From a virus: a stretch of DNA of 64,000 nucleotides. A model generated the notes under the pieces. The model worked only from the letters and a program-made list of their open reading frames with translations. It ran no database searches and was not told the origin of the DNA. Positions 33,996 through 54,991 of the stretch are shown here, one piece after another (within the stretch, counting starts at the first letter, position 1; every line of letters starts with the position of its first letter). The stretch is taken from positions 72,493-136,492 of IMG/VR virus record IMGVR_UViG_3300045988_061465. One strand, 5' to 3'. Position numbers and translations under genes: made by a program.

Positions 33996-33996
33996 A

Positions 33997-34389: not shown

Positions 34390-34552
34390 TTACATAACAT
34401 TAAAGTTTCTAACTATTCATCTAACCGTTGCAATAAACCTGACTCTGCCACCCTTCCAAAAGCTAGTCTTATGACTAGCTAAAAATCATACTAAGAAGCA
34501 ATATTACACAGAATATAGCTGGAATACACCAGCCTATAGCTTGGACTGCTCC

Positions 34553-35032
34553 TCAGCTAAACATGCATATCATTGATGCTATAAAGAATACAATTCCTGT
34601 TAGAACACAGACCCATCCTCCAACATCATCTGCATTGTCAGATAGTTTGCTTTTTCCTATTATAGCAAAATAAATACATAGAATAAGTAAAATAAAGCCT
34701 ACTATCAATCCAGCAATTTCTTTATATAACAATTTCCATACTACAATAGTAATAGCTGTTTGTCCTAAATCTGATTCTGATATTCGTATAGCCGAATCTT
34801 CTACAGCTTTAAGAGTTTCATTAACCGCTACTCCTATTTCTTTACCTAAATTGGCATATTCAGAAACTTCCTTTATTTCACCCTTTATAGCTTTCTCTGT
34901 TGTTATCTTCTCGATTTGAGTTCTAGTTTCACTAGGCAACTTATCATAATCTTCTTGTGATATAGTTATCTGAGAAAAAGCTGCTACGCTCATCCAGAGC
35001 ATAGCAAGCATAAGTACAAGGAACTTTTTCAT
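34553..35032 (-). CDS. membrane protein (signal peptide plus C-terminal transmembrane helices)
   Basis: ORF track. Confidence 0.45.
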   Translation of the reverse strand: MKKFLVLMLAMLWMSVAAFSQITISQEDYDKLPSETRTQIEKITTEKAIKGEIKEVSEYANLGKEIGVAVNETLKAVEDSAIRISESDLGQTAITIVVWKLLYKEIAGLIVGFILLILCIYFAIIGKSKLSDNADDVGGWVCVLTGIVFFIASMICMFS

Positions 35033-35580
35033 TAGTCAAGCCATTCAAATTCTTTACCTTTAAAATGTCTTGCAAAACAAGCATCAAATACTAGCTTTCC
35101 AAACTGAGTTGACACATATTTGGCAATCTCTTCAGATTTGCACACAAGCATCCCAACATCGGAATAGGCAAAGCCGACGTCATTGCGAGAATAGAAATCG
35201 CCAAGACCCGCAATGCCACCAAGAATCGCAAGGCCGCCCACCAACGCGAATTTCTCGCCCTGATAACGGAAGTGTCCAATGACCTCTGCATCTTTCGGCA
35301 CCGATTTCATTCTAAAGAACCGAACCCGAGGATACCATACAGTTCCAGTTAATAGATTGAACTTATGCTTTTCATTCAGCGCATCCAGAATTGTTTGCAA
35401 CTTAGCTAGAGAACTTACGGACCTATTATAGCTAACAACATATCCAAGATAGTCTCTAGCGTCCTCATAGGTCTTTATTCGTCCCATAATATTCTCTGGA
35501 ACAATTTCAACATTACCTGTTTTGGCATTGTAGATAGGCTTGTAGCCATCTGGACATTCAATTTCAATAGTTCTTTTCAT
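35032..35580 (-). CDS. small protein carrying a second DGR variable repeat (VR2) near its C-terminus
   Basis: 182 aa. Residues EKFALVGGLAILGGIAGLGDFYSRNDVGFAYSDVG are encoded by a 96-nt GC-rich segment homologous to the DGR template repeat. Confidence 0.6.
   Translation of the reverse strand: MKRTIEIECPDGYKPIYNAKTGNVEIVPENIMGRIKTYEDARDYLGYVVSYNRSVSSLAKLQTILDALNEKHKFNLLTGTVWYPRVRFFRMKSVPKDAEVIGHFRYQGEKFALVGGLAILGGIAGLGDFYSRNDVGFAYSDVGMLVCKSEEIAKYVSTQFGKLVFDACFARHFKGKEFEWLD
35151..35246 (-). repeat. DGR variable repeat 2 (VR2), remote from the RT
   Basis: The reverse complement aligns over 96 nt with the TR at 62190-62285. About 30 differences sit at TR adenines. One differs at a TR thymine, and the first 4 nt do not match. 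Confidence 0.6.
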
Positions 35581-35609
35581 TTGTTATAATATTTAATAAA
35601 ACATGGTTT

Positions 35610-35685
35610 GGGTGTTATAGCGGATTCGAACCGCTGACCTCTACAGCCACAATGTAGCGTTCTGACCAACTGAACTAATAACACC
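35610..35685 (-). tRNA. tRNA-His (anticodon GUG)
   Basis: Acceptor GGTGTTA/TAACACC with discriminator C. Anticodon stem CTACA/TGTAG with loop TTGTGGC. Confidence 0.7.
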
Positions 35686-35691
35686 ATCAAA

Positions 35692-36144
35692 TTATTCGAA
35701 TAGCGGCAACAACTTATTTCCTAGTATCTTCACCGCTTTCTGTACATCAGCTATGGTTCTAAAATAAACAACACCTGGATATTTTACGTTTTGGTGCATA
35801 ACGACGTACACTCCTTTTATATCAGTTTCCGCCTTTCCAAATAGGGAAGAACCTTTTCCAAGAAAATAACCAGTATTACCCTCTGTTTTGCTCCATCCTT
35901 TATTTAGATAGTTAGCGGTTAGTTGTAGAATGGCCAGAGAAGCAAGTTGTTCTGATGCACTTTTAGGTAATGCTGATATAGTCCACTTTTCTGATTCTAA
36001 TACTTCTAGAAAAGAGGGAATTAGCATTTCTTCACTAAAAGCGGTAAGAGCTAATTTCTTCAAGTCTTCATTACCACTTTCGTACCATTCGCGTGCCTGC
36101 TCCAAAGTTACTTCAAGGCAGGCTTTTGTTTTAATTCTGTTCAT
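35692..36144 (-). CDS. hypothetical protein (150 aa)
   Basis: ORF track. Confidence 0.5.
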   Translation of the reverse strand: MNRIKTKACLEVTLEQAREWYESGNEDLKKLALTAFSEEMLIPSFLEVLESEKWTISALPKSASEQLASLAILQLTANYLNKGWSKTEGNTGYFLGKGSSLFGKAETDIKGVYVVMHQNVKYPGVVYFRTIADVQKAVKILGNKLLPLFE

Positions 36145-36408
36145 CTTATTTATTAGTTTTTAATAGACACCAATCTGGAATTAATACCTTTTTCGTAAGG
36201 TCTTAACATTCCCTCAATTAGTTTATTCTCAGACTCCTTACAGAGTGCTTTCTCGTCATTGAACCAGTCGTTAGGGTCAGGAACAATTAAGCAGTGCGGA
36301 CATTCTCTACACTACTTAATTTCTTTTTGGAATATCACACTAGTACCAGATTTCTGGTAAGTATCCTTCTCCATATTCATACGTTATCATTTTGTATTTA
36401 TTTAAAGG

Positions 36409-36603
36409 TTAAACTAGTTTCCATCCTTCACTCCAATATGACTCCTGTCTATCCATCCAGAATAGTGAAGGGTCAACCATTATACCATCCTCAAATACAT
36501 ATAAACCATTGGAGTTCATACTTACCCATTCATCAGGTCCGAAATACCTATGTCTTACTTTCTTTCCTTCAGACATAGCTTTAATTGCTTTTTCTTTTGT
36601 CAT
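36409..36603 (-). CDS. hypothetical protein (64 aa)
   Basis: ORF track. Confidence 0.35.
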   Translation of the reverse strand: MTKEKAIKAMSEGKKVRHRYFGPDEWVSMNSNGLYVFEDGIMVDPSLFWMDRQESYWSEGWKLV

Positions 36604-36622
36604 AATCTAATTAATTATAGTG

Positions 36623-36706
36623 TGGGATTGGGAGGACTTGAACCTCCAGTCTCAAAAGAGAGCAGATTTACAGTCTGCGCGGCTACCAATTACCGGTTAC
36701 AATCCC
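36623..36706 (-). tRNA. tRNA-Tyr (anticodon GUA), type II
   Basis: Acceptor GGGATTG/CAATCCC. Anticodon stem GCAGA/TCTGC with loop CTGTAAA, identical to the E. coli tRNA-Tyr arm. T-arm GGAGGTTCAAGTCCTCC. Confidence 0.7.
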
Positions 36707-37053
36707 GAATCGACCTAGTAGAGAACCCTGGTTTCCTCATTTAAATATGACTAACCTATATGCAGTGGGTATACATATTTCTAAAATCCATATCCTAGGT
36801 CTCGCTAATAGAGTTTTATTCATAGACAGATTTATAATAATCTATCCAATAGTCTGCTTCCATATCTTCGAAGATTTCTTTAAGTTCTTCATCAGATAAT
36901 CCTTCGTATTTGTCTTCCATAAGTATAATACAAACATTATATAGCTGAGTTTTTCTTTGAACCAATCTAATATCGAATACTCATGATAACACTCCCACAG
37001 TGAGTTATACTCTTCATTATCTAGATTACTACAGTATTTAAGATAACCTTTCA

Positions 37054-37425
37054 TTATATCTTTCTTCTATTAAATAGTCTAAAATATTCGTCAGAGTATA
37101 CATTACATAAATCCTTATACTTTTTTGGCATAGGATAATCAAAGTCATCAAATGCAGATTCTTTAATAAATCCATCATAGAGAGCCATGTTTGCTGTAGT
37201 AACAGCAATATTACAATTGCGCTTCTTTCCCCAGTCAACAATGCTATTCATAACACTATTAAAGTATTCTGTATCATTATCAACCTGTAGGTAAATTTCC
37301 ACTCTGCAAATTGCAGGATTTTTGAATCCTTGTTTACCTTGTCTAAGAGTTATCTTAGATACGAAATTCAAGTCTAGCAAATCTGCTATTCTATCCTTAG
37401 CTACAATTCTAGAAATTCTTATCAT
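37054..37425 (-). CDS. hypothetical protein (123 aa)
   Basis: ORF track. Confidence 0.45.
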   Translation of the reverse strand: MIRISRIVAKDRIADLLDLNFVSKITLRQGKQGFKNPAICRVEIYLQVDNDTEYFNSVMNSIVDWGKKRNCNIAVTTANMALYDGFIKESAFDDFDYPMPKKYKDLCNVYSDEYFRLFNRRKI

Positions 37426-37453
37426 CTTTTGGTAATATTATTTTACATAATTG

Positions 37454-37537
37454 TGGGATAGGTAGGATTCGAACCTACTAAGCCTAAAGGCAACGGATTT
37501 ACAGTCCGTCCCAACTCTCCAACTTTGGCGCTATCCC
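37454..37537 (-). tRNA. tRNA-Tyr (anticodon GUA), second copy, type II
   Basis: Acceptor GGGATAG/CTATCCC. Anticodon stem ACGGA/TCCGT with loop CTGTAAA. T-arm GTAGGTTCGAATCCTAC. Confidence 0.65.
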
Positions 37538-37746
37538 ATAAAAACAATTAACAGATTTGTTCTAATTAACATAACTACTACAATTCTTCCTCTTGGCACC
37601 CCAAGTCCTCTAGTAGCTAATAGCCGCACTAGTGCGTGGTAACAATTTTAAGGAACTCACCTCTGTTAATTGGAGTAATCAGGGATTCATCTACGTAGGC
37701 ACCCAATAGACATTATCTATTCTACTAGTGAATGGTGATTACTTCG

Positions 37747-37819
37747 TCTGGATAGTGTGGCTCGAACACACGACCTCTGCATCCCAAATGCAGCGTTCTA
37801 CCTACTGAACTATATCCAG
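37747..37819 (-). tRNA. tRNA-Pro (anticodon UGG)
   Basis: Acceptor CTGGATA/TATCCAG. Anticodon stem CTGCA/TGCAG with loop TTTGGGA. T-arm GTGTGTTCGAGCCACAC. Confidence 0.7.
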
Positions 37820-37964
37820 GTGTAAGTATGTGTTTCACAACAAATACTCACTGCGTAAGAAAAAGAAAAATTCAAGAAAATCAAATTTTATCTATCTTAG
37901 AAAAGGTGTAATTTAATCTATCTAAAGATATAATACAATCTTTAGCAAAATTAATTCCCTTTGT

Positions 37965-38345
37965 CTAATTATTAGCAGGAGGTTCTTCTCTAATAGTAAT
38001 AGAATTTCTATTGGCTACATCGCATTCAGGGAATACATAAATATTATGAAGGTCACAACATATCATAATATCTACTTCTTCCTCATCATACTTATGAATA
38101 GTTCCCTTGTTATAATTATTACTTGTTAGGCTAAAACTCAAAGAATTATTTACAGTTTTACTAGCTGTAGTTTTCACCTGGGTTTTATAAAACTTTTTAT
38201 TGTAATATATAACAAAGTCAAATGGAAGATTATCAGACATAGGCAGAAGAATGTCTAAACCATATTTTGATAATTCCCCTATAGCTATACGTTCACCAAT
38301 TTCTCCAAGCTATTTTTTGTTTTTTAATTCGTCTACATTTATCAT
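37965..38345 (-). CDS. YraN/PD-(D/E)XK-like small nuclease; upstream start at 38345 requires read-through of an in-frame TAG
   Basis: The ORF track gives 37965..38240. Extending upstream adds M INVDELKNKK[TAG]LGEIGERIAIGELSKYGLDILLP, a conserved-looking GE-rich N-terminus typical of this fold. If TAG is sense, the 3' end may instead extend to a TGA near 37878. Confidence 0.4.
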
Positions 38346-38366
38346 AATTTTAAGTGTTTATAATAG

Positions 38367-38437
38367 TTCTCCCTAAGAGAGTCGAACTCTTGTCTTCTGA
38401 TTAAAAGTCAGAAGCTCTACCGTTGAGCTAAGGGAGA
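38367..38437 (-). tRNA. tRNA-Lys (anticodon UUU)
   Basis: Acceptor TCTCCCT/AGGGAGA. Anticodon stem TCTGA/TCAGA with loop CTTTTAA. Confidence 0.7.
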
Positions 38438-38444
38438 ATAACTG

Positions 38445-38516
38445 TCTTCCCTCCCAGATTCGAACTGGGATTAGAGGCTTAGAAGGCCACTGTTCTATCC
38501 GTTGAACTAAGGGAAG
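38445..38516 (-). tRNA. tRNA-Arg (anticodon UCU)
   Basis: Acceptor CTTCCCT/AGGGAAG. Anticodon loop CTTCTAA. The stem has one T-T mismatch. T-arm CCCAGTTCGAATCTGGG. Confidence 0.55.
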
Positions 38517-40480: not shown

Positions 40481-41240
40481 TTTTCTTTTCTTTTTAATTG
40501 TTGCATTTTACACCTAAAACTTACTCACGTTATATCTAATTAGATATTAAAACCTATCTAAGTCCTTACGGGCAAGGTATCGAGTATTGTAAGAAACTGG
40601 TGCCCTCAATGTCTTGGGAAGTTATTGAGTTTTTGATTAATAGCTCTTGTACGCATTACATGTCTAGAGCCATGACAAAACCTAATTTAATAGGACGCTG
40701 GTAATAAAAATTCGTAATAAATTAAAATAATAAATAAAAATAAAAATAATAATCAGGCGCATTTACTTCTTGGTTATGCTATTGATGCTTCTCCTGAGCA
40801 GAGCCAATATTATATGACGTTATTGGCTATTTACGTCTATTCCCCTATTCTGCTATTAGGTTGGTTGCCTTATTGTGAGTCCTGGAATAGCGCGAACCTA
40901 ACGCTATAAATCTCACAGTCTACTTCATTTCCATAACTTATCCAAGTAGACGAAGGTTACCCAATCAGTATTGGGACAATCACAGCGGCGTTTATTTATA
41001 CTCGTCCCGTACGAGTTTAACAAAAAAATGTCAGGAATAGGTAATCACCTGACTATGAGCTCGGAAGCCAACTGCTCTTTGTAGGAAACTCATCCTCAGC
41101 ACACGTTTTGCTTCAATACCCGAAACGTAGAAAGCACATTTAATGACGGTTACTAACTTCCCTCCTATCTACCGACAAGTTCAGAGTTTCGTCTAGGTCT
41201 CATCAGATGGTATTTTATACTCTCCTAGGTTGAGTTTTAA

Positions 41241-41274: not shown

Positions 41275-42301
41275 CACTATCAAAAGACCTTCCTGTGCCA
41301 CTCTCCTTTGAATTGTTTCACAACAATTACATAGTCTCTGGGCGTACTCATTATAGTCTCCAATAATACACAACAATAGTTCCCTACTCCGGACTTGAAC
41401 CAGAATCTTCTCCTTTAGAGGGAGATATACTGACTTGTACTAGTAGGGAAATACTCCACCTGCCTAAGCTCCTTATGGGAGCTGTAGGCTATCTAGAATA
41501 AGATGGAGAGTTATTTAGATAGTTTCCTATGCTATCTACGTTACCAACGTTCACTAAGAATATAGGTAGCTAATCCATATTCTTGCGACTGAGTTCGAGG
41601 TAGGAAATATACCCTTATGAGGTACCCTCTTATCAGCTAGCCTTATTTTAATCTAGCGGCTTATACTAGGCAACTTCTAAATAAATAAAATGCATAACTA
41701 TAAATGATATGCTTTGGTCTACTGGCATATCAGCAGTACTTCATAATATTGCTATAAGCGACCAACCCTATAGCTCAATCCTCTTGTAATAGTGTTTAAG
41801 TTTGCGAATATACACATTACAATCGTAGCAGTTATTTTCGGATATTTGGGCTATCTGCGTAACCCCGCTTTTGTTGCCTTAACAGGCTAAATGTTAGAGT
41901 AAATAATCATTTGTAGTATGAGTTATAAAACTCGTCCTACTGGCGATTTTTTGAAAACTGGAAAAAGTCGGAAAATTGGGTGCTGACGTTGTGGACAATT
42001 ATTCTCCTTACTCTCCATATTTTCACGTGAAACATACACGATTTTACTAGAAATGATAGTCTTTCCTATCAGCCAGACATAAAACTAAAACTACTACAAA
42101 AGTTAACTCGGTTTTTGATTTTTTTGTTTTGTTGTTGATTTCTCCGTTGACCAATGTTCCAATGATGGAGTTCATATGGGCATTTTATTTTAACTCATAA
42201 TACCTTAGAGCTGCACGTTTGACTTATTTTAAATCTCGTTGTGCGCTGAGATTACAATTAGATTCTGCCACTCTCACTTATTTATACACGAGAGAGTCGT
42301 G

Positions 42302-44821: not shown

Positions 44822-44893
44822 TGCCCTATGGTGTAATGGTTAGCACAGATGACTCTAAATCATTTAGTCTGGGTTCGAATCCTAGTAGGGCAA
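44822..44893 (+). tRNA. amber-suppressor tRNA-Gln (anticodon CUA)
   Basis: TGCCCTATGGTGTAATGGTTAGCACAGATGACTCTAAATCATTTAGTCTGGGTTCGAATCCTAGTAGGGCAA. Acceptor TGCCCTA/TAGGGCA is perfect. Anticodon stem GATGA/TCATT with loop CTCTAAA has U33, C34-U35-A36 and A37. It is a close paralogue of tRNA-Gln(UUG) at 30152-30223 and the only tRNA on the plus strand. Confidence 0.8.
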
Positions 44894-44911: not shown

Positions 44912-45139
44912 ATGATAAATTTAAATGAGAATTATGCTGTAACTCCAACAGGAGTTAAGACCCTTATTATTGAAGAGGGAGATGATTGGAATAAAGTTTG
45001 CGATAAGGTAGTTGGATGTAGATTTGATTACATATTTGTGCCTCAAGAATTTGAGAATCAAGCCTGCTACTTTCTTCCACAAATAAGTATTCAAGGAAAG
45101 CAGATAGGTAAGATATGTACTTATAAAGTAGTGAAATGA
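44912..45139 (+). CDS. hypothetical protein (75 aa; ORF-track start moved downstream of the tRNA)
   Basis: ORF track 44849..45139 overlaps the tRNA. First ATG after the tRNA is used. Confidence 0.4.
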   Translation: MINLNENYAVTPTGVKTLIIEEGDDWNKVCDKVVGCRFDYIFVPQEFENQACYFLPQISIQGKQIGKICTYKVVK

Positions 45140-45450
45140 AACAGTGTGCAGTCGTATTGAATGGTAATGATGTTGTCAAAGTTTCTAATTTAAAAAGAAA
45201 GTATGACAAAATAATGAGTAATCCCAATATGAAAATATTGGAAGAATGTGATAAAGAAATGCTAGATGAGAAATACAACTACTGGAATAGAACATTAAAT
45301 AGAAATATAGAAGAGGAGAAAAATGAGGAAGCAAAACTTCATCATTTTAGGAATCCAAAAACAGGTTGCACTATAGCAAGTATCTATCCAGATTTAGAGG
45401 AATGTAAATCATATATAAAAGACTGGATGGATTATGTTAAACTTGACTGA
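45136..45450 (+). CDS. hypothetical protein (104 aa)
   Basis: ORF track. Confidence 0.45.
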   Translation: MKQCAVVLNGNDVVKVSNLKRKYDKIMSNPNMKILEECDKEMLDEKYNYWNRTLNRNIEEEKNEEAKLHHFRNPKTGCTIASIYPDLEECKSYIKDWMDYVKLD

Positions 45451-46817: not shown

Positions 46818-47732
46818 ATGGACAAAAGTAAAATTACAAAACAAAATGGGAACATAGCTTTTGAGGAAGAAGCTCATATTTATTATGATGTTACAAAGCC
46901 AGAACAGAAGTTTATATCTGTAACGACTTTAATTCATTCTTTCACCCAACCATTTGATAAGGAGTTCTGGTCAGCATATAAAGCACTAGAGAAACTCTTA
47001 CCTAAAGAAGATTGGGCTATAGAAAAAAAGTCTTTGTTGAACACTAAGAAATTTGATAAAGTTCTACTTGAACTTCATAACATTACAGAAGACGAGTTTA
47101 ATAAAGAGCAACAAGCTATCTTAGATGCTTGGGATTTAGAGAATAGAAACTCATGCGAGAGGGGAACTAAAATCCATGCAGATTTGGAAAACTCTTTCTA
47201 TAAAAAGAAACAGAACATAGACCTTAGTAAATATCAAATAGGTGGCAAGTTCGAGTGTATAAAAGACCACAATGAATTAGACTTAGAGAATGGTGTATAT
47301 CCTGAGTATTTAATATCTAGAGTATCGGATGATGGAAAGCTAAGAATAGCAGGACAGATTGACTTATTAGTTAAAAGGGGAAATAAGATAATTATAGGAG
47401 ACTGGAAGACCAATAAGAAAATAGAAACTAAGAGTTTCTTCAATTCTAAAACCAAAACTTCTGTTAAGATGAAATATCCTCTAAATAATTTAGATGATGT
47501 TAATTACTGGCACTATACTTTACAATTAAGTACTTATGCTTGGATGATTCAAAAGAAAAATCCAGAGTTTGAAATAGAGGATTTGGTTTTGGTACATTTC
47601 GACCATAATGACAATATGACAGTATATCATTTACCATATCTAAAAGATGAGGTTATAAAAATGCTAGCCTTCTATAAGAAGGAATCTATATTGGCAGAAA
47701 ATAAAAGAAAACGTCAACGTATTGAATATTAA
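46818..47732 (+). CDS. PD-(D/E)XK family nuclease (Cas4/RecB-like exonuclease fold)
   Basis: IAGQIDLLVKRGNKIIIGDWKTNK has the D...(D/E)xK pattern. 304 aa. Q-rich but with no TAG, so standard code. Confidence 0.5.
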   Translation: MDKSKITKQNGNIAFEEEAHIYYDVTKPEQKFISVTTLIHSFTQPFDKEFWSAYKALEKLLPKEDWAIEKKSLLNTKKFDKVLLELHNITEDEFNKEQQAILDAWDLENRNSCERGTKIHADLENSFYKKKQNIDLSKYQIGGKFECIKDHNELDLENGVYPEYLISRVSDDGKLRIAGQIDLLVKRGNKIIIGDWKTNKKIETKSFFNSKTKTSVKMKYPLNNLDDVNYWHYTLQLSTYAWMIQKKNPEFEIEDLVLVHFDHNDNMTVYHLPYLKDEVIKMLAFYKKESILAENKRKRQRIEY

Positions 47733-47734
47733 TT

Positions 47735-47950
47735 ATGACACTAGAGGAAATAGAAGAAAGATTTGAGATATGTAGACGCTGCCCAATATGTGATCAAGAT
47801 AATGGATTATGTAATGGGCATTTGTATCTAAATCCAAAGAATAATGATATAAGTATAAGCCCTAAAGAAGGGTATATAAAGGGATGTGGATGTTTACTAG
47901 AGAAGAAGATTCCAAACGAAAAGAAACATTGTCCAGCAGGGAAATGGTAA
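47735..47950 (+). CDS. small zinc-ribbon protein (71 aa)
   Basis: CRRCPICDQDNGLCNGH...CGCLLEKKIPNEKKHCPAGKW. Confidence 0.4.
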   Translation: MTLEEIEERFEICRRCPICDQDNGLCNGHLYLNPKNNDISISPKEGYIKGCGCLLEKKIPNEKKHCPAGKW

Positions 47951-48267
47951 TTTATGGAACTCCTATATTATATAAACCAGATAAGCATTATATACTTACT
48001 GTCATAAACAGGGAAACAAAGGAGGAAAAAGATATGATATGGAAGTGGATTAAAGCAATATTTACTAAACCTTTAACAATATTGAAAAGTATATATTTCA
48101 ATATATTCGGAATAAATCAAGATTTGGCAACCAAAAGATTAAAAATTTGTGACGCTTGTTCCCATAAACTACAAACATCTGTTGGGGAAGTGTGTGATGA
48201 ATGTGGTTGTATATTAGAGAATAAAACAAGAATTGAAGATGAACATTGTGATTTATGTAAATGGTAA
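47884..48267 (+). CDS. Cys-rich protein (127 aa)
   Basis: CDACSHK...CDECGCILE...CDLCKW. Overlaps the previous gene in another frame. Confidence 0.4.
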   Translation: MWMFTREEDSKRKETLSSREMVIYGTPILYKPDKHYILTVINRETKEEKDMIWKWIKAIFTKPLTILKSIYFNIFGINQDLATKRLKICDACSHKLQTSVGEVCDECGCILENKTRIEDEHCDLCKW

Positions 48268-48275
48268 AATGAATT

Positions 48276-48878
48276 ATGGAAACTTTAAGAACAGAATTAA
48301 ACAGTAACGAAAAACTAGCACTATCATTAACTGGAATGGAAGGTATAGGAGAACATTTTATTTTAAATGGAGAGGCTGCAGACCAAACATTATTAAGAGA
48401 AAAACAAGAGAAGTTTAATACCGCAGTAGATGAGTTAGAAGATAAATTCTCCAAACATAATCAGGCACTAGAGGATTACGCTAAGTCATTATCTAACGAT
48501 ATGAATGGACTTGAAATTATGCCGATGTATGGGTATGCATTAATTAAACCTTTTGAACAAAACCCATTCCAAAAAATAAAAACTACTAAAAGTGGTCTTA
48601 TTACTGATTTAGGTGGATTTACTCCTACTTATAAATCTAATGAGACTGGAGAAATTGAAGAAGAACAACAATTTATTAAGGTAGGAACTGTGATAGAAGT
48701 AGGACACAAGTGTGAGTTCTTGAAGCCTGGAGATATTGTATTTTATACAATAGCTAGTGAATGTATGGTTCCATTCTATAAACTGGGATTTGTAGTAGTT
48801 AATGAGAATAGAATCATGGCTGTAGTTAATGAGAAACTAACTGAAAGAAGAGACGAATTGAAGCATGGAAACAATTGA
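48276..48878 (+). CDS. protein with GroES-like co-chaperonin C-terminal domain
   Basis: LIKPF...KTTKSGLITDLGG...KVGTVIEVGH...KPGDIVFYT...ENRIMAVVNE follows the GroES/T4 gp31-like pattern. Confidence 0.45.
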   Translation: METLRTELNSNEKLALSLTGMEGIGEHFILNGEAADQTLLREKQEKFNTAVDELEDKFSKHNQALEDYAKSLSNDMNGLEIMPMYGYALIKPFEQNPFQKIKTTKSGLITDLGGFTPTYKSNETGEIEEEQQFIKVGTVIEVGHKCEFLKPGDIVFYTIASECMVPFYKLGFVVVNENRIMAVVNEKLTERRDELKHGNN

Positions 48879-49089
48879 TGAAAAAGTTTATTTTAAGCCT
48901 GGGGATTGTGTTACTTTACGGTAGTGTAAAGTAATGCACTCTCCAGTTATGCTTGTTCTAAGAAGAGAAGCAGCTTTATTTAAAGATAACCAAGGATTAC
49001 GAGGACTAAGATGTAGATGGTTTACTGATTCTGGATTAATGCAGGAAGCAGTATTTAATACAAAGGATTTAATTAAAGTAGAAGAGTAA
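48865..49089 (+). CDS. DUF2158 (YodC)-like small protein with 1 in-frame TAG
   Basis: Hand translation METIDEKVYFKPGDCVTLR[TAG]CKVMHSPVMLV...GLRCRWFTDSGLMQEAVFNTKDLIKVEE, which matches the FKxGDxVxL...P.M.V...C.WF pattern. Confidence 0.5.
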
Positions 49090-49661
49090 TGGCTAATTAG
49101 GAAGAATTACAGAAGGCATTCATGGCATACTTGATACAAGATGCCCAAGCACAGGGAATACAATTACAATCAGAGCAAGATTTATAGGCTTACGCCGAAT
49201 AGCTTGGAGAAGATGGAATTAAAGCTAAGTATCAAGAATTTATGTAGAAGATGCAAGGTGGAATTATGGCTAGACTTGGGGCTAAACTAGAATACTATAA
49301 AAAATTAAAAGGAGTATGCCCAGAAGGAGAGGAACTTGTTTATTTTAAACAGGGAGGAAGAATCTGCAAAGCTTGCCAAAAAGCATAGAAAGGAACTAAG
49401 GTTACTAAGAAAGCTAATGAAGTTGACAAATTCAAGGCTGTAAGAGCTTAGTATAAAAAGGATATGAAATCTGCAAAGGATGAAGCATCTAGAGATTCTG
49501 TATCTATTAATAAATATAATGACTAGGAGGTCATGGCAAATAAGGGACACAAAGGAAACTTTAAAAATGGAAAATGGGTTCCAGATAGAACAAAATATGC
49601 TAAGAAAGATGCTTGTGGTTCTAAAATGAAAGTAAGTAAATGCGGTTCTAAAATGAAATAA
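49089..49661 (+). CDS. hypothetical protein with 7 in-frame TAG codons (190 aa)
   Basis: MAN[TAG]EELQKAFMAYLIQDAQAQGIQLQSEQDL[TAG]AYAE[TAG]LGEDGIKAKYQEFM[TAG]KMQGG... Reading TAG as Gln gives natural Q-rich helices. Ends ...GSKMKVSKCGSKMK then TAA. Confidence 0.55.
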
Positions 49662-49691
49662 AAAGATTAAAGATGTTAATGTTAATGATTG

Positions 49692-50258
49692 ATGAGTATG
49701 AATGTATTTAATTATAACACTTTAACTAAATAGTTAGAAATAAATGAACCAGAGCTTCTTCTAGTTAAAGAGTTTAAGGCTTTGATACAGAGAGATAAAT
49801 CTGTTGACAAGGAACGAGTAACTAGAGAATTATCTTACATTTATCTAGCTATTGATTGGAAGAGTCCTTATAGCCAATATTCAGAACATGAAAGACATGA
49901 TGAAGCTATTAGTGACTCTGGACTATCTGAATCCGAATTTAATGACCCGTTATTCAGGGAAGCCTGTAGAAAATACCGAGCATTGTAGGATTCTAACAAA
50001 TCAATAAAACTTCTAGAAGCAGCTAAAAGAGCGGCTGACTAGTTTATTGATTATTTTGATACTATAGTAGATTTAAATGAACGTGATAATAATGGCAAAC
50101 CCGTCTTTCAAGCTGAAAAGGTAATGAAAGAGATGGCTACTCTTCATAAAGTTCATGAAGAATTAGTAACACTAGAAGAGCAGGTTAAGAAAGAGCTTAC
50201 AGAACAATCTACTGTAAGAGGTGGAGCTACAGACGGCTTTGACCCAGGAGACTTTTAA
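49692..50258 (+). CDS. hypothetical protein with 3 in-frame TAG (candidate small terminase subunit by position only)
   Basis: Continuous frame MSMNVFNYNTLTK[TAG]LEINEPELLLVKEFKALIQRDKSV...RKYRAL[TAG]DSNKSIKLLEAAKRAAD[TAG]FIDYFD...GFDPGDF then TAA. Immediately upstream of TerL. Confidence 0.4.
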
Positions 50259-50260
50259 TT

Positions 50261-52621
50261 ATGCCTAGAAAGAAAAAAATATTACCTGAAGAAATCTAGA
50301 ATATAGTAGATTAGGTAAGAGAGAAAGAACAAAAAGAGGATGCCAAAGAAGCTAGAGAACTAGTATAGAAGATAAGAGAGGAAAGGGGCAAAAATGCTGA
50401 TTATTGGGATGTAAAAAGAGGAGATAAGATAGAGGTATTTGACCCTACTTTATCTTATGAAATAACTGGATATAGACCAATAGATGAAACACATGGTCTT
50501 GACTTCGACCCAGATTGGTTTACTGAGACCAGAGAAGTATATAGAAAAACTGGAAAGTATTGTCCATATCTAAAAGATAGTAAGAGATATAATGAGTTTT
50601 GGAAGGAATAGTATAGAAGATGTAAATATGGAATGACTGTTAATGGTTATACAATTACTGGAGATAACTATTTCTTCCTAAACTTCTACTAGCTTCCTAT
50701 TATTGATGATAACAAAGCATCTGGAGAAGGAACAAGTAGTGACTTTCCTATATTTTTCGCATCTCATTATATGTTCTTTCATTATCTATAGATGGCTAGA
50801 GTTCTGCATAAACACGCAGCTCTCATGAAAGCTCGTTCTATTGGATTCTCTGAAATAAATGCATCCTTATCTGCAAGAATGTATTCAGTAATCAGAAGAA
50901 GCAGAGTAATGATTACCTGTTTTAATGATACTTTCCTTAAAGGTACTTTTAGTAAGTTTGATAATGCTTTAACATTCTTGAATACTTGTACAGGAGGAGG
51001 ATTCTTCAAACTACGTTTGATTGACCAAGACTTAAGAAAGAAGTCCGGTAAACAGATTAAGGTAAACGGGCAGTTTGAGGATGTTGGGTTTAAATCAGAA
51101 GTAGTTGGAATAAACGGAGCTAAGGCATCTAATATTCGTGGAGACCGTGTTGACTTATTAATATATGATGAAGCAGGGTCTTGGCCTGGACTAGATACTG
51201 CTGTAGTGCAGGGACAAGAGCTTTGTGAAGTTCAAGGTAAACCTCGTGGAACAATGTTATTTGGAGGTACTGGTGGTGATATGGGTGCTCCATTAGCAGG
51301 TCTTAAGAAGATATATTATAATCCAAAAGCTTACAAAGTTCTTCCATTTAGACACAATTATACACAGGATGGGACTACTATTGAAAGTGGGTTCTTCATT
51401 CCATATTTTGTCTAGTCTCTAAATTCAGAATACATGGACCATAGAGGTGTATGTAATACAGTAGAATATAAGAAGTATCTATAGGAAGAGCGCGACAATT
51501 TATTAGCAGTTCCAGATGACTATCTAAAGAAGTGTGCCGAACGATGTTGGAATGCAGAAGAAGCATTTAATCTTGAAGGTGTTAACAAGTTCAACAAGAT
51601 TCTTATTGCAGACCAATTAGCTAATATAAGACTTAAGAAAATAGGACCAAGACCAGAATCTGGATACATAGACTATTTCTATAAAAATAATAAACACACC
51701 TAGGATAATATAGATGGTTTTAAATGGATTCCTAATATTAACGGAAAAGTAAAAATACTTGAACATCCTGTATGGTCTGATTTGTATAAAGAGTAGATGG
51801 ATAAACTTAGATAGGAAGCTGAGGAAAGGGGAGAAGAATTTGAATCTCCAGCGTATAAAGAAATGCGTGATTTATATGTTGCAGGAATAGATGGTATTGA
51901 TATAGGAGCTAGTCAAACTTCAAAAGAAACAAGAGATCCTTCTGATTTCTGTATAACTATAAAAAGAAGAGCATTTGGTCTAAACGAACCGTAGTATGTT
52001 GCTATGTATAAAGACAGACCTAATGACATTAGAGAAGCCTATAAAATAGCCATGTGTTTAGCTAGATACTATAATTGTAGAATAAACATAGAAGCTACCC
52101 GTGTAGGTATGATTACCTGGGCTAGAGAAAAGGGTTGTTTAAACTACTTTATGAAAAGACCTAGAGCTACTCTAACAGACGTTAAGAATGGAACTACTAA
52201 ATAGTATGGAACACCTGCTACCAAAACCATTATAGAACAACATACTGATTTGACAGCAGCCTTTATTGAGGATTTCTGTCATACTATATGGTTTGAAGAA
52301 ATGTTAGACCAATTTACTGGATATAATGATGAGAATAAAGGTAAATTCGATATTGTAGCCGCTGTGGGAATGACAGAATTGGCAGACTAGGAATTGTCAG
52401 GAAGATAGCCAGTGCTTGTTGAAAAAGAAGTTGAACAATTCCAAGATTATGGTTATTATTACGACGAGAGGGGAATCAAAAGATTTGGGGTTATACCAAC
52501 TTCTAAGACTTTTGAAACTAACATACAAAAAAATGAATACGATGACCCATACAGAATTGAAACAAGTGATCCTAGGTTATATGAGAGACTTGTACAAAAT
52601 GGAATACGTAGGTGGGCTTGA
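50261..52621 (+). CDS. terL: terminase large subunit (TerL) with about 16 in-frame TAG codons
   Basis: A single frame links ORF-track pieces 50792..51415, 52004..52204 and 52412..52621 across TAGs. Contains ...YFFLNFY[TAG]LPIIDDNKASGEGTSSDFPIFFASHYMFFHYL[TAG]MARVLHKH..., the ATPase-like DLLIYDEAGSW and a nuclease-domain C-terminal half. Ends at TGA. Confidence 0.7.
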
Positions 52622-52877
52622 AATTCAGAACCTAGATCCAGTTGGTTATAAGGTATCATTTAACTTTGATAGGTCAGAGATGCCTTTAGTCATTATAGCT
52701 GATTTACCTGATGAAGAATTTCTCCCATTTATAAAGGAAGAATTAAGAAGTAGGAAGTTACAAAGAGTTAAATACTATAATGCAACTAAACTTCCTCCAG
52801 AACAGCATAATTTATGTTATGAAAGAAAAAGAACTAATAGACAAGACGAACGAGGCTATTGCGGAGCTTGTATATGA
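52542..52877 (+). CDS. small standard-code protein overlapping TerL 3' end (start uncertain)
   Basis: ORF track 52416..52877. Internal starts at 52542 and 52599 are more plausible. Cys-rich C-terminus. Confidence 0.35.
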   Translation: MTHTELKQVILGYMRDLYKMEYVGGLEIQNLDPVGYKVSFNFDRSEMPLVIIADLPDEEFLPFIKEELRSRKLQRVKYYNATKLPPEQHNLCYERKRTNRQDERGYCGACI

Positions 52878-54990
52878 TAAGTACGAATTATAGAAAGCCT
52901 ATAATTACTACAACGGGAAGAGAGACCCAGAATAGTTTCGTTACCTGGAAGAAAACTTCGGAATAGGTAGTCCTACTTCTGTAGAATTTACACCATTACT
53001 AAAGAAGCACGTAGATGCTCTAGTAGGGGAATATCTAGGAACCCCTATCCTTCCGAAGATTTCTTGTAAGGATTCAGATACCATTAGTAATATCACCAGA
53101 GAAAAATAGTTGGAAATAACTAAAGGGATAGTTAAATTTCTTAGAGACCATTTAAGTAATTCTATTCTGAAATTTATCGACGGAAAAGATATTACAGATA
53201 AAGCCGTGAAGACTTAGTTAGATAAAATTATTCAAGACATTGATTAGTCTTTTATTTCTCAATATGAGATAGCTGCATAGAATATTATTCATTATATCAT
53301 GCAGTCTAGAGAAACCGATTTAATAACTAAACTCCGATAGTTACTTACAGATTTATTAATTACTGGCTATACATTTTTCAGAGTAAAATCATCATCTTCT
53401 GGAACTAACATAGAAATAGAAGTTCTGAATCCTTTAAATACTTTCGTAGATAGGAATCCAGAATCTCCATATGTTAAAAATTCGTATAGAGTAGTAGTTA
53501 GAAAATGGATGAGTAAAAGCTAGATATTAGCTAAATATGGAAAAGAAATCTCTAGAGAAGATTTGAAAAGACTAAAAGATGAATGGAGAGCTGATGATTC
53601 AGCTGCAGTTTATAGAAGAGTTTATGGCGACACTTGTACTATAGTAAATGAAGACTAGAATCATGAAACTATTCCTGGATACCCAGATAATGAATATAGT
53701 GCTCATAGATTTTAGTTAATTCCTGTTTATGATGTAGAGTGGATAGAAACTGATGACGATTTTGTAATGTAGAGATACAATACCATTAGAATTGGAGAAG
53801 AAATATATATTCTGAGAGGTCTGGACAAGACTGTTATGAGGTCAAAAGATAATCCTAATTTCTGCTCTTTGTCTGTAAATGGGGTATATTTCTTAAATCG
53901 TTCTCAACAACCATACTCCCTGATATTAAAATGTGCACATCTATAGGATAGATATGACTTGTTAAATTATTATAGGGACAACCTGATAGCTAACAGTGGT
54001 ACTGCTGGAGTAATCATGGATATGTCATTGCTTCCTACTAACCTAGGCGTAAAATGGCCAGAAAGAGTGTAGAAATGGTTAGCATACAAGAAGGGTGGTA
54101 TCATGTGGATTGATTCCACTTAGGAGGGAAGAAATGATGGAGCGCAAGCACCTAACTAGATATACAATGGATTTGATGATACCTTAAAAGCTTAGGCTGT
54201 ATAGGCTATTGAATTAGCAATTCAATCAGTAGAACAAACTACATCATCTATAACTGGAGTATTTAGAGAAAGATTAAATGGAATAGAAACTCACGATGCT
54301 GTAACTAATATTAAGCAAGGTGTTACTAACTCTTACATAGTAACCAAGCATTATTTCTAGTAGATGGATCTAATCACTTGTGAGATATTATTGGATAGTC
54401 TAAACTAGGCTAAAATAACATATAAGAAAGGATTGACTGGTACTATTATACTTGGAGATAAATACTAGCAGATATTTACAGCACTTCCAGAATATTTTAC
54501 GGTTACTGATTATGACATCCATATAACTTCTAGCTCCGAAGTAATGGAAGATTTACAAACTATTAAAGCTATTATTCCAGAGTTTGTTAAAAGTCAGCAA
54601 ATGGATCCTGACATCATATTTGAAGCACTAACTGCTAAGAGTCTTACAGACCTTAAATACAAGGTTAAGAAAGCAGTATAGATTCGTAAAGAAGAAAACA
54701 ATTAGCTATAGTAGCTATAGGAAAAATTGGAAGAAACTTCACAATAGGCATAGCAGTTACAGCAAGAACTATAGAAAGCTTAGTAGAAGATAGAAAGTTT
54801 GGATGAGTAGAGATTAGGATTAGAATAGCAGAAAATGTAGTTAGAATATAAGGTTAACTGGCTCAAAGCTCAATCTGATTCTACATATAAAGATAGACAA
54901 ATGGATATAGAAGAAAAGAGAACTGAAATAGAGTTGGCTTAGCTTCATGATGGAAATCCATATAATGACAAAATAAGACAAATACATTAA
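52819..54990 (+). CDS. portal protein with about 35 in-frame TAG codons
   Basis: 723-codon frame MKEKELIDKTNEAIAELVYDKYEL[TAG]KAYNYYNGKRDPE[TAG]FRYLEENFGIGSPTSVEFTPLLKKHVDALVGEY... The C-terminal coiled coil becomes LQQLQEKLEETSQQAQQLQQELQKAQQKIESLDEQRLGLEQQKMQLEY if TAG is Gln. Position after TerL fits a portal. Confidence 0.65.
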
Positions 54991-54991
54991 T

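What the first reader, a model, noticed from the sequence alone, without database searches (positions are those of the whole stretch)
44822..44893. Amber-suppressor tRNA-Gln(CUA) at the head of the late gene module
A canonical 72-nt tRNA on the plus strand has anticodon loop CTCTAAA, giving anticodon CUA, which reads UAG. All other tRNAs in the window are on the minus strand. Its acceptor stem, D-arm and discriminator are nearly identical to the phage's own tRNA-Gln(UUG) at 30152-30223. It therefore looks like a Gln isoacceptor whose anticodon mutated from UUG to CUA. Every long gene downstream (TerL, portal, tail fibers, DGR RT) contains many in-frame TAG codons and terminates at TAA or TGA. 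This matches genetic code 15 (TAG to Gln), which has been described for some large gut phages. The suppressor sits apart from the main tRNA array and is co-oriented with the TAG-containing genes. That placement suggests its expression is tied to late transcription and acts as a translational timing switch.
Basis: partly seen in the sequence, partly recalled or inferred. Interest (0 to 1): 0.85.

Follow-up and report, generated by a model that had tools for sequence, protein, structure and literature searches.

The report
Phage amber-suppressor glutamine tRNA, code 15
A large crAss-like gut phage carries a tRNA that reads the stop codon TAG as glutamine, which lets it translate its TAG-filled virion genes; this is real, but it is a well-described feature of this phage group.

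Summary
A cloverleaf tRNA with anticodon CUA lies at 44822-44893 (+). It is the only plus-strand tRNA of 28 in the window.

Reading TAG as sense raises plus-strand ORF coverage downstream from 26% to 83%. TAG means glutamine:
- In the portal gene, 26 of 35 TAG positions align with Gln in a standard-code relative (P about 3e-22).
- One TAG in the DGR reverse transcriptase sits at the family's SQ-motif glutamine.
- The tRNA's closest annotated relatives are tRNA-Gln genes.

Three corrections:
It follows a RAGATH-14 RNA. Its counterparts in relatives carry CUA, UUA or CUG.
- The tRNA is not a recent copy of the phage's own tRNA-Gln(UUG), to which it is 73% identical. It belongs to an older suppressor family shared with other crAss-like phages and resembles a CUG-type tRNA-Gln.
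- It is not strictly at the head of the recoded genes. Two conserved TAG-containing ORFs lie upstream in the same tightly packed gene array, five TAG-free ORFs follow, and the heavily recoded block starts 4.2 kb downstream.

The timing-switch idea is a published, unproven hypothesis that this sequence neither proves nor refutes. TAG-to-Gln recoding with suppressor tRNAs in Zeta-group crAss-like phages is already known.

The parts
44822..44893 (+). SupA: amber-suppressor tRNA, anticodon CUA, Gln-type body (U1-A72, discriminator A73, no encoded CCA)
   Evidence: ARAGORN; Rfam tRNA 66.5 bits; cloverleaf fold; covariation in relatives; conserved upstream of TerL in most recoded related loci; best annotated matches are tRNA-Gln
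41380..41449 (-). SupB: second CUA tRNA, unrelated in sequence to SupA (67% identity), short D loop, U1-A72, A73.
   Evidence: ARAGORN; Rfam tRNA 54.3 bits; cloverleaf MFE and centroid; orthologues in relatives carry CUA, UUA or CUG anticodons
41505..41678 (-). RAGATH-14 RNA, 55 nt upstream of SupA's partner SupB on the same strand. It explains the spurious 'ORF' at 41551-41910 with 8 TAGs.
   Evidence: Rfam RF03145, 166.7 bits (gathering score 149.1); the same arrangement 26-31 nt upstream of SupB in L005, L006, L014, L022 and L042
41244..41265 (-). Terminator-like hairpin (9 bp, then a T run) about 115 nt downstream of SupB
   Evidence: fold of 41240-41379 (-)
41171..41236 (-). RAGATH-1 hammerhead-like ribozyme, just below the curated threshold
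   Evidence: Rfam RF03152, 54.2 bits against a gathering score of 56.3; a relative (L002) scores 69.3 bits
44283..44684 (+). Conserved 133-aa ORF with 3 in-frame TAG, upstream of SupA in the same gene array
   Evidence: conserved over its full length in relatives, with TAG exchanging for Gln codons
44677..44817 (+). Conserved 46-aa ORF with 1 in-frame TAG; overlaps the previous stop and ends 4 nt before SupA
44912..45450 (+). Two overlapping TAG-free ORFs (75 and 104 aa) that start 18 nt after SupA
   Evidence: TAG-free in all relatives; no Pfam family
46818..48878 (+). Three TAG-free plus-strand ORFs (a PD-(D/E)XK nuclease and two of unknown function) between SupA and the recoded block
49089..63652 (+). 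TAG-recoded structural block with 130 in-frame TAGs in 10 genes. Includes TerL 50261-52621 (15 TAG), portal 52780-54990 (35), tail proteins, DGR target 60292-62112 (8) and DGR RT 62429-63652 (9). TAG makes up 38-82% of Gln codons per gene. All stops are TAA or TGA.
   Evidence: TAG = Gln
30151..30223 (-). The phage's sense tRNA-Gln(UUG) in the main tRNA array; 73% identical to SupA
13933..38516 (-). Main array of 26 sense tRNAs interspersed with standard-code genes
   Evidence: minus-arm ORF stops are TAA 32, TGA 9, TAG 3
21532..22080 (-). HNH homing-endonuclease-like gene with 5 in-frame TAG, inside the otherwise standard-code minus arm

Best explanation
SupA (44822-44893, +) is a phage-encoded amber-suppressor tRNA with a glutamine-type body.

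**Proposed mechanism**
1. It is transcribed as part of the densely packed plus-strand gene array. It lies in a 94-nt gap between ORFs.
2. It is cut out by host RNase P and 3' processing enzymes.
3. CCA is added, because none is encoded.
4. It is charged with glutamine, as the E. coli supE tRNA-Gln(CUA) is.
5. It then competes with release factor 1 at UAG. This allows full-length translation of the virion, packaging and DGR genes from 49 kb onward, in which about half of all Gln codons are TAG.

**Second suppressor**
A second CUA tRNA, SupB, lies on the opposite strand behind a RAGATH-14 RNA. It probably adds to the suppressor pool. Its body also tolerates a Gln CUG anticodon in one relative.

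**Consequence**
Genes on the minus arm avoid TAG both in frame and as a stop codon, so they can be read by the unmodified host machinery. Virion proteins can therefore only be completed once suppressor tRNA has accumulated.

**Shown here**
- The tRNA and its conservation.
- TAG read as sense.
- TAG means Gln.
- The Gln-type tRNA body.
- The uneven distribution of TAG across the genome.

**Inferred**
- Charging by GlnRS.
- Co-transcription and processing.
- Competition with RF1.
- Any role in timing.
For: **The tRNA is real and conserved**
- (97.8% paired, 11 compensatory pairs).
- A CUA tRNA lies on the TerL strand 5.2-9.6 kb upstream of TerL in most recoded related loci. There are 12 distinct sequences and the anticodon never changes.

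**TAG is read as sense**
- ORF coverage rises from 26% to 83%. From TerL onward it rises from 21% to 92% in the window, and by similar amounts in relatives.
- PHROG matches to TerL, portal, tail protein and RT appear only on the read-through ORFs.

**TAG means Gln**
- In the TerL family, 60% of alignment columns that contain Gln also contain TAG. The figures are 26% for Glu, 17% for Lys, 7% for Tyr and 0% for Trp.
- The substitution profile of TAG fits Gln best (mean log-likelihood -2.26, against -3.37 for Glu).
- Three related loci use the standard code (L056, L049, L054). In them, 74 of 147 window TAG positions align with Gln.
- For the portal: 26 of 35 in L056 (P 3e-22) and 20 of 35 in L049 (P 2e-13).
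- In the RT, TAG occupies the Gln of 'IGxxxSQ': 'PIGNYLS-TAG-FFANLY' aligns with 'PIGSLTSQLFANVY' of the Bordetella DGR RT, 8ub7.

**The tRNA body is Gln-type**
- The top full-length matches in GenBank phages are annotated tRNA-Gln.
- One of them is the sense tRNA-Gln(CUG) of mycobacteriophage Wildcat, 82% identical with the same acceptor stem and D arm.
- The U1-A72 or U1-G72 first pair is kept in all versions.

**Placement**
- In the crAss-like phage cr60_1 the homologous CUA tRNA is 258 nt upstream of TerL on the same strand.
- The same holds in MT836720, at about 316 nt.

**TAG is avoided elsewhere**
- Of 44 minus-arm ORFs, 32 end in TAA, 9 in TGA and 3 in TAG.

**Literature**
- Code 15 in phages with suppressor tRNAs: Borges et al. 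(10.1101/2021.08.26.457843), Yutin et al. (PMC7886860) and the Zeta-group survey (PMC12386605).
- Proteomic confirmation in crAss-like phages: Peters et al. (PMC9523058).
Against: - Charging, processing and suppression efficiency are all inferred.
- E. coli GlnRS identity elements are only partly present. U1-A72, G2-C71 and U35 are there. Position 3-70 is C-G, not G-C, and the discriminator is A73, not G73 (sequence; the rules are recalled from the E. coli literature).
- With two CUA tRNAs present, the sequence cannot say which one does the decoding.
- No release factor, GlnRS or amidotransferase gene was found among 30 window ORFs. There is therefore no 'code-change module' in the window.

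Against a clean timing switch:
- TAG-containing ORFs lie upstream of SupA.
- TAG-containing genes occur in the minus arm.
- SupB sits at the head of the minus arm.
- A putative glucosaminidase on the minus arm has no TAG.
Confidence: 0.88

Rival explanations
1. Promoter-timed switch. SupA is expressed only with late transcripts, so its appearance acts as an on/off gate for the late genes.
For: - SupA is co-oriented with the recoded block and sits apart from the main tRNA array.
- Homologous CUA tRNAs lie directly upstream of TerL in cr60_1 and MT836720.
- The hypothesis is published (Borges et al., 10.1101/2021.08.26.457843; Yutin et al., PMC7886860).
Against: - Two conserved TAG-containing ORFs precede SupA in what looks like the same transcription unit, so some TAG decoding is needed before or together with its transcription.
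- A second CUA tRNA lies at the head of the opposite arm, with its own terminator-like hairpin.
- Five TAG-free ORFs and a minus-strand insert separate SupA from the recoded block.
- The promoter scan finds no excess of promoter-like sites (40 found, 43.3 expected). Nothing in the sequence fixes the time of expression.
Confidence: 0.35
2. Threshold model. Both suppressors are made throughout infection. UAG read-through rises gradually as they accumulate and outcompete RF1. Delay of virion proteins is a by-product of concentration, not of a dedicated late promoter.
For: - There are two suppressor genes on opposite arms flanking the divergent region.
- TAG-containing genes are scattered outside the late block.
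- Kienbeck et al. (PMC10879173) propose such a concentration-based alternative.
Against: There are no expression data. The strong concentration of TAG in structural genes (38-82% of Gln codons) fits either model.
Confidence: 0.35
3. Anti-host or anti-competitor weapon. The main benefit of the suppressor is to corrupt host proteins, or those of co-infecting elements, by reading through their TAG stops. On this view the TAG codons in phage genes are a tolerated consequence.
For: - Proposed by Yutin et al. (PMC7886860) and in the Zeta-group paper (PMC12386605). The latter reports Zeta phages that keep a CUA tRNA without any recoding.
- The window's own genes almost never end in TAG (3 of 44 minus-arm ORFs, 0 of 20 in the plus-arm region).
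Against: In this phage, TAG makes up about half of all Gln codons in essential virion genes and is conserved across relatives. Decoding the phage's own genes is therefore indispensable, whatever else the tRNA does.
Confidence: 0.15
4. SupA inserts an amino acid other than Gln, for example Glu, Lys or Trp. Alternatively SupA is inactive and SupB does the decoding.
For: - A73 and C3-G70 differ from the E. coli Gln identity set.
- At large evolutionary distance (TerL representatives at 26-46% identity) the TAG columns are variable. Glu, Gln and Lys profiles fit about equally (-2.88, -2.91, -2.92).
- Some lower-ranked blastn matches of SupA are annotated tRNA-Trp or tRNA-Arg.
Against: - At moderate distance the signal for Gln is decisive.
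- The best matches are tRNA-Gln.
- SupA's anticodon is invariant and its stems co-vary, which argues against a pseudogene. SupB's anticodon, by contrast, varies among relatives.
Confidence: 0.05

Closest known systems
Code-15 (TAG to Gln) crAss-like phages of the Zeta group (Yutin et al. 2021, PMC7886860; Zeta-group survey 2025, PMC12386605)
   Same: - TerL's nearest annotated relatives are Crassvirales terminases, at 26-29% identity.
- Related contigs are mostly 163-195 kb.
- The window has 28 tRNAs including CTA suppressors, GC of about 35%, a DGR, homing endonucleases, and TAG recoding concentrated in structural genes.
- This matches Table 1 of PMC12386605, for example cthgQ11 (188,977 bp, 27 tRNAs, CTA, amber, DGR+).
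   Different: - No record in the GenBank phage collection is closer than about 68% DNA identity over TerL and portal, so identity with a named genome could not be shown.
- The papers I read do not describe two CUA tRNAs per genome.
- They also do not mention the RAGATH-14 neighbour. I did not read their supplements.
Suppressor tRNA(CUA) genes of Suoliviridae crAss-like phages cr60_1 and cr7_1, annotated tRNA-Gln in RefSeq
   Same: - 84-86% identical to SupA.
- Same acceptor stem (UGCCCUA) and D arm, and same CUA anticodon.
- In cr60_1 the tRNA is on the TerL strand just upstream of TerL.
   Different: - In the window's lineage, 5.4 kb of other genes separate the tRNA from TerL (5.2-9.6 kb in relatives).
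- cr60_1 encodes the 3' CCA; SupA does not.
E. coli supE (glnV) amber suppressor, tRNA-Gln with anticodon CUA
   Same: A Gln tRNA whose anticodon differs from CUG by a single change (G36 to A). It still inserts Gln at UAG. This comparison is recalled knowledge, not tested here.
   Different: - supE is a weak suppressor mutation in a cellular gene.
- SupA is a conserved phage gene that serves hundreds of sense TAG codons.
- SupA's discriminator and its 3-70 pair differ from E. coli tRNA-Gln.
Theta-ribozyme-associated suppressor tRNAs of recoded gut phages (Kienbeck et al. 2024, PMC10879173)
   Same: Amber-suppressor tRNAs in code-15 gut phages, with structured or catalytic RNAs next to the tRNA proposed to control its maturation.
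   Different: - No HDV-like ribozyme was detected next to either tRNA (E up to 1; folds).
- Instead, SupB has a RAGATH-14 RNA on its 5' side and a hammerhead-like motif about 140 nt downstream on its 3' side.
'Code-change module' of Jade phages (Borges et al., 10.1101/2021.08.26.457843): suppressor tRNA plus tRNA synthetase plus release factor upstream of lysis genes
   Same: A suppressor tRNA placed upstream of, and co-oriented with, recoded late genes.
   Different: No synthetase or release factor was found among 30 window ORFs scanned.

Membership tests
tRNA (Rfam RF00005) | Cloverleaf with acceptor, D, anticodon and T arms, supported by score and covariation | tested here: met
   66.5 bits against a gathering score of 29; ARAGORN; 97.8% paired with 11 compensatory pairs in relatives
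Amber-suppressor tRNA | Anticodon CUA in a 7-nt loop with U33 and A37 | tested here: met
   The loop is CUCUAAA. It is invariant in all SupA versions.
Amber-suppressor tRNA | Actually decodes UAG in vivo | not testable with these tools
   Supported only indirectly: 130 in-frame TAGs in conserved essential genes
tRNA-Gln (bacterial GlnRS identity set, as known from E. coli) | Weak 1-72 pair (U1-A72) | tested here: met
   U1-A72 in the window; U-A or U-G in all versions
tRNA-Gln (bacterial GlnRS identity set, as known from E. coli) | G2-C71, G3-C70 and discriminator G73 | tested here: not met
   G2-C71 is present, but 3-70 is C-G and the discriminator is A73. The window's own sense tRNA-Gln(UUG) also has A73, so the E. 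coli rule may not apply in this host.
tRNA-Gln (bacterial GlnRS identity set, as known from E. coli) | Sequence kinship with accepted tRNA-Gln genes | tested here: met
   The top full-length matches are annotated tRNA-Gln. Wildcat tRNA-Gln(CUG) is 82% identical with the same acceptor stem and D arm. The closest tRNA within the window is Gln(UUG) at 73%.
Genetic code 15 (TAG = Gln) phage | In-frame TAG in conserved genes; full-length homologous ORFs only when TAG is read through; stops are TAA or TGA | tested here: met
Genetic code 15 (TAG = Gln) phage | TAG positions align with Gln in homologues that use the standard code | tested here: met
   74 of 147 positions overall. Portal: 26 of 35 (P 3e-22). 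RT: the SQ-motif Gln. Codon exchange within the TerL family.
Genetic code 15 (TAG = Gln) phage | Gln found at TAG sites in peptides | not testable with these tools
   Done for other crAss-like phages by Peters et al. (PMC9523058), not for this one
Crassvirales, Zeta-group crAss-like phages | crAss-type TerL and portal | tested here: met
   tblastn of TerL: the best annotated hits are Crassvirales terminases at 26-29% identity. PHROG terminase and portal families match.
Crassvirales, Zeta-group crAss-like phages | Genome of 145-192 kb, crAss-type major capsid protein, multisubunit RNA polymerase, placement in the Zeta clade by phylogeny | not tested
   Only indirect: contigs of close relatives are mostly 163-195 kb. 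MCP and RNAP lie outside the window or were not examined, and no tree was built.
Theta-ribozyme-associated tRNA-Sup | Minimal HDV-like ribozyme with its cleavage site within 5 nt of the tRNA 3' end | tested here: inconclusive
   No HDV-like Rfam family at E up to 1 in 40-50 kb. The 3' flanks are AT-rich with no such fold. I did not confirm that Rfam models detect theta ribozymes.
Code-change module (tRNA-Sup + aaRS + RF) | A synthetase and a release factor encoded next to the suppressor | tested here: not met
   None among 30 ORFs scanned with Pfam. The rest of the genome was not available.

The most novel reading that the evidence does not exclude
This phage lineage keeps two unrelated amber-suppressor tRNAs on either side of the divergent control region.

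SupB forms a fixed unit with a RAGATH-14 RNA 26-55 nt upstream, followed by a terminator-like hairpin and a hammerhead-like motif. Its anticodon differs among near-identical genomes: CUA, UUA (fixed in one sub-lineage although TAA remains a stop) and CUG.

The most novel reading is that RAGATH-14 is a cis-acting processing or regulatory element that gates maturation of SupB. This would be a 5'-side counterpart of the theta ribozymes. SupB would then be the regulated, tunable component of the code switch, and SupA the constitutive one.
Probability: 0.12. Interest if true: 0.6.

Novelty: already known. Interest (0 to 1): 0.3.

Why it matters
For annotation, this window must be translated with table 15. 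Otherwise the terminase, portal, tail and DGR genes fall apart into fragments.

Biologically it is one more well-documented case of a phage that rewrites the host's genetic code for its virion genes. It does not change the picture drawn since 2014.

Three details may be useful to specialists:
- The suppressor belongs to an old tRNA-Gln(CUG)-like family shared across crAss-like families, often next to TerL.
- This lineage carries a second suppressor with a variable anticodon.
- That second tRNA is physically linked to an orphan structured RNA, RAGATH-14, whose function is unknown.

Tried and rejected
- **Masked TerL in the representative search.** At 26-46% identity the TAG columns are too variable to separate Gln, Glu and Lys. 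I therefore switched to codon-level comparison with closer relatives and with standard-code relatives.
- **Database proteins alone.** The 120 closest TerL proteins show Q at most TAG positions. This is circular, because the genes fetched for those proteins do not translate to them under table 11 ('translates_to_query: no') and hold 18-21 TAG codons. I replaced it with DNA-level analysis.
- **Synthetase, release factor or amidotransferase.** None found in 30 window ORFs.
- **HDV-like or theta ribozyme next to the tRNAs.** None found.
- **Sigma-70-type promoters around SupA.** No more sites than in shuffled sequence (40 against 43.3), so this is uninformative.
- **Is RAGATH-14 generally linked to tRNAs?** Among 26 RAGATH-14-like sites in viral contigs, 14 are followed by a tRNA (13 CUA, 1 CUG). 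All of those I could cross-check are contigs of this phage lineage. The other 12 lack one, and several of them lie on shorter contigs of 67-100 kb. The link is therefore not general.
- **Does the UUA version of SupB go with TAA recoding?** No. TAA stays a stop in those relatives.
- **Literature on RAGATH-14.** Searches found nothing on its function.
Full report
**1. The observation**

ARAGORN finds 28 tRNA genes in the window. One, at 44822-44894 on the plus strand, has anticodon CTA. Rfam's tRNA model places it at 44822-44893 with 66.5 bits, E 4.5e-13. Its minimum-free-energy fold is a cloverleaf.

It has U1-A72, discriminator A73 and no encoded CCA. I call the two SupA (plus strand) and SupB (minus strand).

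**2. TAG is a sense codon downstream**

Over 44-64 kb, plus-strand ORFs of at least 100 aa cover the following fractions:
- 26% with table 11.
- 83% when TAG is read through.
- 28% when TGA is read through.
- 39% when TAA is read through.

The read-through ORFs match PHROG families for large terminase (1.4e-61), portal (6e-48), tail protein (7e-85) and reverse transcriptase (3e-112).

In-frame TAG counts are TerL 15, portal 35, the four tail and unknown proteins 8-24, and RT 9. TAG makes up 38-82% of Gln codons in these genes. All stops are TAA or TGA.

The minus arm (1-42 kb) behaves differently. Coverage hardly changes with TAG read-through. Its 44 ORFs end in TAA (32), TGA (9) and TAG (3).

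**3. TAG means glutamine**

*Why database proteins were not enough.* The closest TerL proteins in the database show Q at TAG positions. The genes fetched for those proteins do not translate to them under table 11 and hold 18-21 TAG codons. I therefore worked at the DNA level.

*TerL family.* In a codon alignment of 50 distinct TerL genes from related contigs:
- 60% of columns that contain Gln also contain TAG. The figures are Glu 26%, His 22%, Lys 17%, Tyr 7% and Trp 0%.
- The partners of TAG (Q 36%, E 18%, K 9%) mirror those of ordinary Gln codons (Q 43%, E 11%, K 11%).
- Mean log-likelihood is -2.26 under the Gln profile and -3.37 under Glu, the next best.

*Standard-code relatives.* Three related loci use the standard code in this region: L056, L049 and L054. 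They have 81% coverage with table 11 and no TAG in TerL. Against them:
- 74 of 147 aligned window TAG positions are Gln.
- In the portal, 26 of 35 are Gln in L056 and 20 of 35 in L049. Binomial P is 3e-22 and 2e-13 against the subject's own Gln frequency.

*The DGR reverse transcriptase.* One TAG falls on the Gln of the 'IGxxxSQ' motif. 'PIGNYLS-TAG-FFANLY' aligns with 'PIGSLTSQLFANVY' of the solved Bordetella DGR RT (8ub7).

*Very distant homologues.* At 26-46% identity the TAG columns are too variable to discriminate.

**4. What kind of tRNA SupA is**

Within the window its closest relative is tRNA-Gln(UUG) at 30151-30223, but identity is only 73%. The next closest is Arg at 68%. The 5' half of the D arm is shared. 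Two acceptor pairs and the whole anticodon stem differ.

Against GenBank phages, the best full-length matches are annotated tRNA-Gln:
- Two are CUA tRNAs of crAss-like phages cr60_1 and cr7_1, at 84-86% identity with the same UGCCCUA acceptor stem.
- One is the sense tRNA-Gln(CUG) of mycobacteriophage Wildcat, at 82% identity with the same acceptor stem and D arm.

SupA is therefore a member of an old Gln(CUG)-like suppressor family shared among crAss-like phages. It is one change (G36 to A) from a CUG anticodon. It is not a recent mutant copy of this phage's UUG isoacceptor.

In most recoded related loci a CUA tRNA lies on the TerL strand 5.2-9.6 kb upstream of TerL. There are 12 distinct sequences and the anticodon is invariant. 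The stems co-vary: 97.8% paired, 11 pairs with double changes, and 0 of 500 shuffles as high.

**5. Local anatomy**

The plus-strand arm begins at 43269, after a divergent region at about 41.9-43.2 kb where the GC skew also flips. The order of features is as follows:

| Coordinates | Feature | In-frame TAG |
|---|---|---|
| 43269-44120 | HTH protein | 0 |
| 44283-44684 | 133-aa ORF | 3 |
| 44677-44817 | 46-aa ORF, overlaps the previous stop, ends 4 nt before SupA | 1 |
| 44822-44893 | SupA | n/a |
| 44912-45139 | 75-aa ORF, starts 18 nt after SupA | 0 |
| 45136-45450 | 104-aa ORF, overlaps the previous one | 0 |
| about 45.4-46.7 kb | short minus-strand insert | 1 in the one ORF judged real (46362-46703) |
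| 46818-48878 | three ORFs, including a PD-(D/E)XK nuclease | 0 |
| 49089 onward | heavily recoded block | 130 in 10 genes |

The four small ORFs flanking SupA are conserved in relatives. TAG exchanges with Gln codons in the two upstream ORFs, and no TAG ever appears in the two downstream ORFs.

SupA sits in a 94-nt gap. No more sigma-70-like promoter sites were found than in shuffled sequence. The simplest reading is co-transcription with its neighbours followed by nucleolytic release. This is an inference.

In cr60_1 and MT836720 the homologous tRNA lies about 260-320 nt upstream of TerL on the same strand. Linkage to the packaging and structural module therefore appears ancestral. In the window's lineage it has been loosened by inserted genes.

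**6. The second suppressor**

SupB (41380-41449, minus strand; 54.3 bits) folds as a cloverleaf in both the MFE and centroid structures. It is only 67% identical to SupA.

It lies 55 nt downstream of a RAGATH-14 RNA at 41505-41678, which scores 166.7 bits against a gathering score of 149.1. After SupB come a terminator-like hairpin (41265 to 41244) and a RAGATH-1 hammerhead-like motif (41171-41236, 54.2 bits against 56.3).

The RAGATH-14-to-tRNA arrangement recurs in relatives with a 26-31 nt gap. RAGATH-14-like sites on other, mostly shorter contigs lack a tRNA.

Orthologues of SupB carry several anticodons:
- CUA in most.
- UUA in one body type, found in nine loci.
- CUG in one (L045).
- Damaged loops in three (L010, L011, L029).

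In the UUA carriers, TAA is still a stop and TAG is still sense. The CUG version suggests that this body is also accepted as tRNA-Gln. This is an inference.

**7. Mechanism and timing**

The best-supported mechanism has four parts:
- Phage-made Gln-tRNA(CUA) competes with RF1 at UAG.
- Virion, packaging and DGR proteins can be completed only when suppressor tRNA is present.
- Standard-code genes, which avoid TAG, are translated regardless.
- A few homing-endonuclease-like genes in the minus arm also carry TAG. One is the HNH gene at 21532-22080 with 5 TAG. This resembles the recoded intron endonuclease noted by Borges et al.

Whether the delay comes from a late promoter or from gradual accumulation cannot be decided from sequence. 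Three things argue against a simple 'tRNA first, recoded genes after' layout: the upstream TAG-containing ORFs, SupB on the opposite arm, and the TAG-free ORFs after SupA.

No synthetase, release factor or amidotransferase was found among 30 ORFs.

**8. Comparison with what is known**

- TAG-to-Gln recoding of late genes with phage suppressor tRNAs is described for crAss-like phages. [quoted passage not shown]
- Borges et al. show it is widespread in gut phages and propose it as a regulator of late and lytic genes (10.1101/2021.08.26.457843).
- Peters et al. verified it by proteomics (PMC9523058).
- The 2025 Zeta-group survey lists genomes of 176-189 kb with 23-27 tRNAs, a CTA suppressor, amber suppression and a DGR (PMC12386605).

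The window fits this description. TerL's nearest annotated relatives are Crassvirales terminases, and related contigs are mostly 163-195 kb. The finding is therefore correct but already known in kind.

**9. Verdict**

Gln suppressor and code 15: yes. Origin from the phage's own UUG tRNA: no. Strict head-of-module placement and a timing switch: not established.
- Interest is low to moderate. The only possibly new details are the second suppressor with a variable anticodon and its link to RAGATH-14.

Noticed in passing
It is unrelated in sequence to SupA. Among close relatives its anticodon is CUA, UUA or CUG, and the loop is damaged in three loci (L010, L011, L029).
   Followed up: yes
window 41505-41678 (-): A RAGATH-14 RNA (166.7 bits, above Rfam's threshold) lies directly upstream of SupB. 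The pairing recurs in relatives with a 26-31 nt gap, but RAGATH-14-like sites in other phages lack a tRNA. I found no literature on the function of RAGATH-14.
   Followed up: partly
window 41171-41236 (-) and 40774-40951 (-): A RAGATH-1 hammerhead-like motif (54.2 bits, just under the 56.3 threshold) and a weak RAGATH-7 match (25.5 bits) lie downstream of SupB. A relative (L002:654-740) has a hammerhead above threshold. The region 40.7-41.7 kb looks like a cluster of non-coding RNAs.
   Followed up: no
L005, L015, L016, L020, L021, L043, L046, L047, L051 (SupB position): One sub-lineage has a UUA (ochre-type) anticodon fixed in SupB. Yet TAA remains the main stop codon and is not read as sense in those phages. 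Why an ochre suppressor is kept there is unexplained.
   Followed up: partly
window 61990-62087 and 62190-62287 (+): DGR variable and template repeat pair (98 nt, 77% identity). The template's A positions are substituted in the copy at the C-terminus of tail protein 60292-62112, just upstream of the RT at 62429-63652.
   Followed up: partly
window 21532-22080 (-), 37881-38345 (-): Two genes in the otherwise standard-code minus arm carry in-frame TAGs. One is an HNH endonuclease-like gene with 5 TAG. The other is a 154-aa ORF with 2 TAG that looks like a nuclease by eye only (not scanned). Recoding is not confined to the structural arm.
   Followed up: partly
L045, L053 (TerL) and protein P0003: Some relatives have TerL interrupted by an insertion. 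P0003 (1131 aa) carries Pfam homing-endonuclease/LAGLIDADG-type domains (PF05204, PF05203, PF14528), which I read as an intein. This fits the high intein and intron load reported for Zeta-group phages.
   Followed up: no
window 29190-29597 (-): A small ORF inside the tRNA array matches the phosphodiesterase domain of tRNA ligase (PF08302, 5e-08). It may be a tRNA repair function.
   Followed up: no
window 9430-10446 (-), 5748-7310 (-), 8165-8992 and 31011-32984 (-), 17608-18105 (-): Auxiliary genes on the minus arm: an OmpA-like outer-membrane beta-barrel protein (suggests a Gram-negative host), a nicotinamide phosphoribosyltransferase, two SPFH/Band 7 proteins, and a glucosaminidase (possible lysin) with no TAG.
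   Followed up: no
L025 (IMGVR_UViG_3300045988_113697): This relative has 24 TAG codons in TerL and homologues of the ORFs that flank SupA. ARAGORN finds no tRNA in the 10 kb upstream of TerL. The suppressor may lie elsewhere or be too divergent to detect.
   Followed up: no
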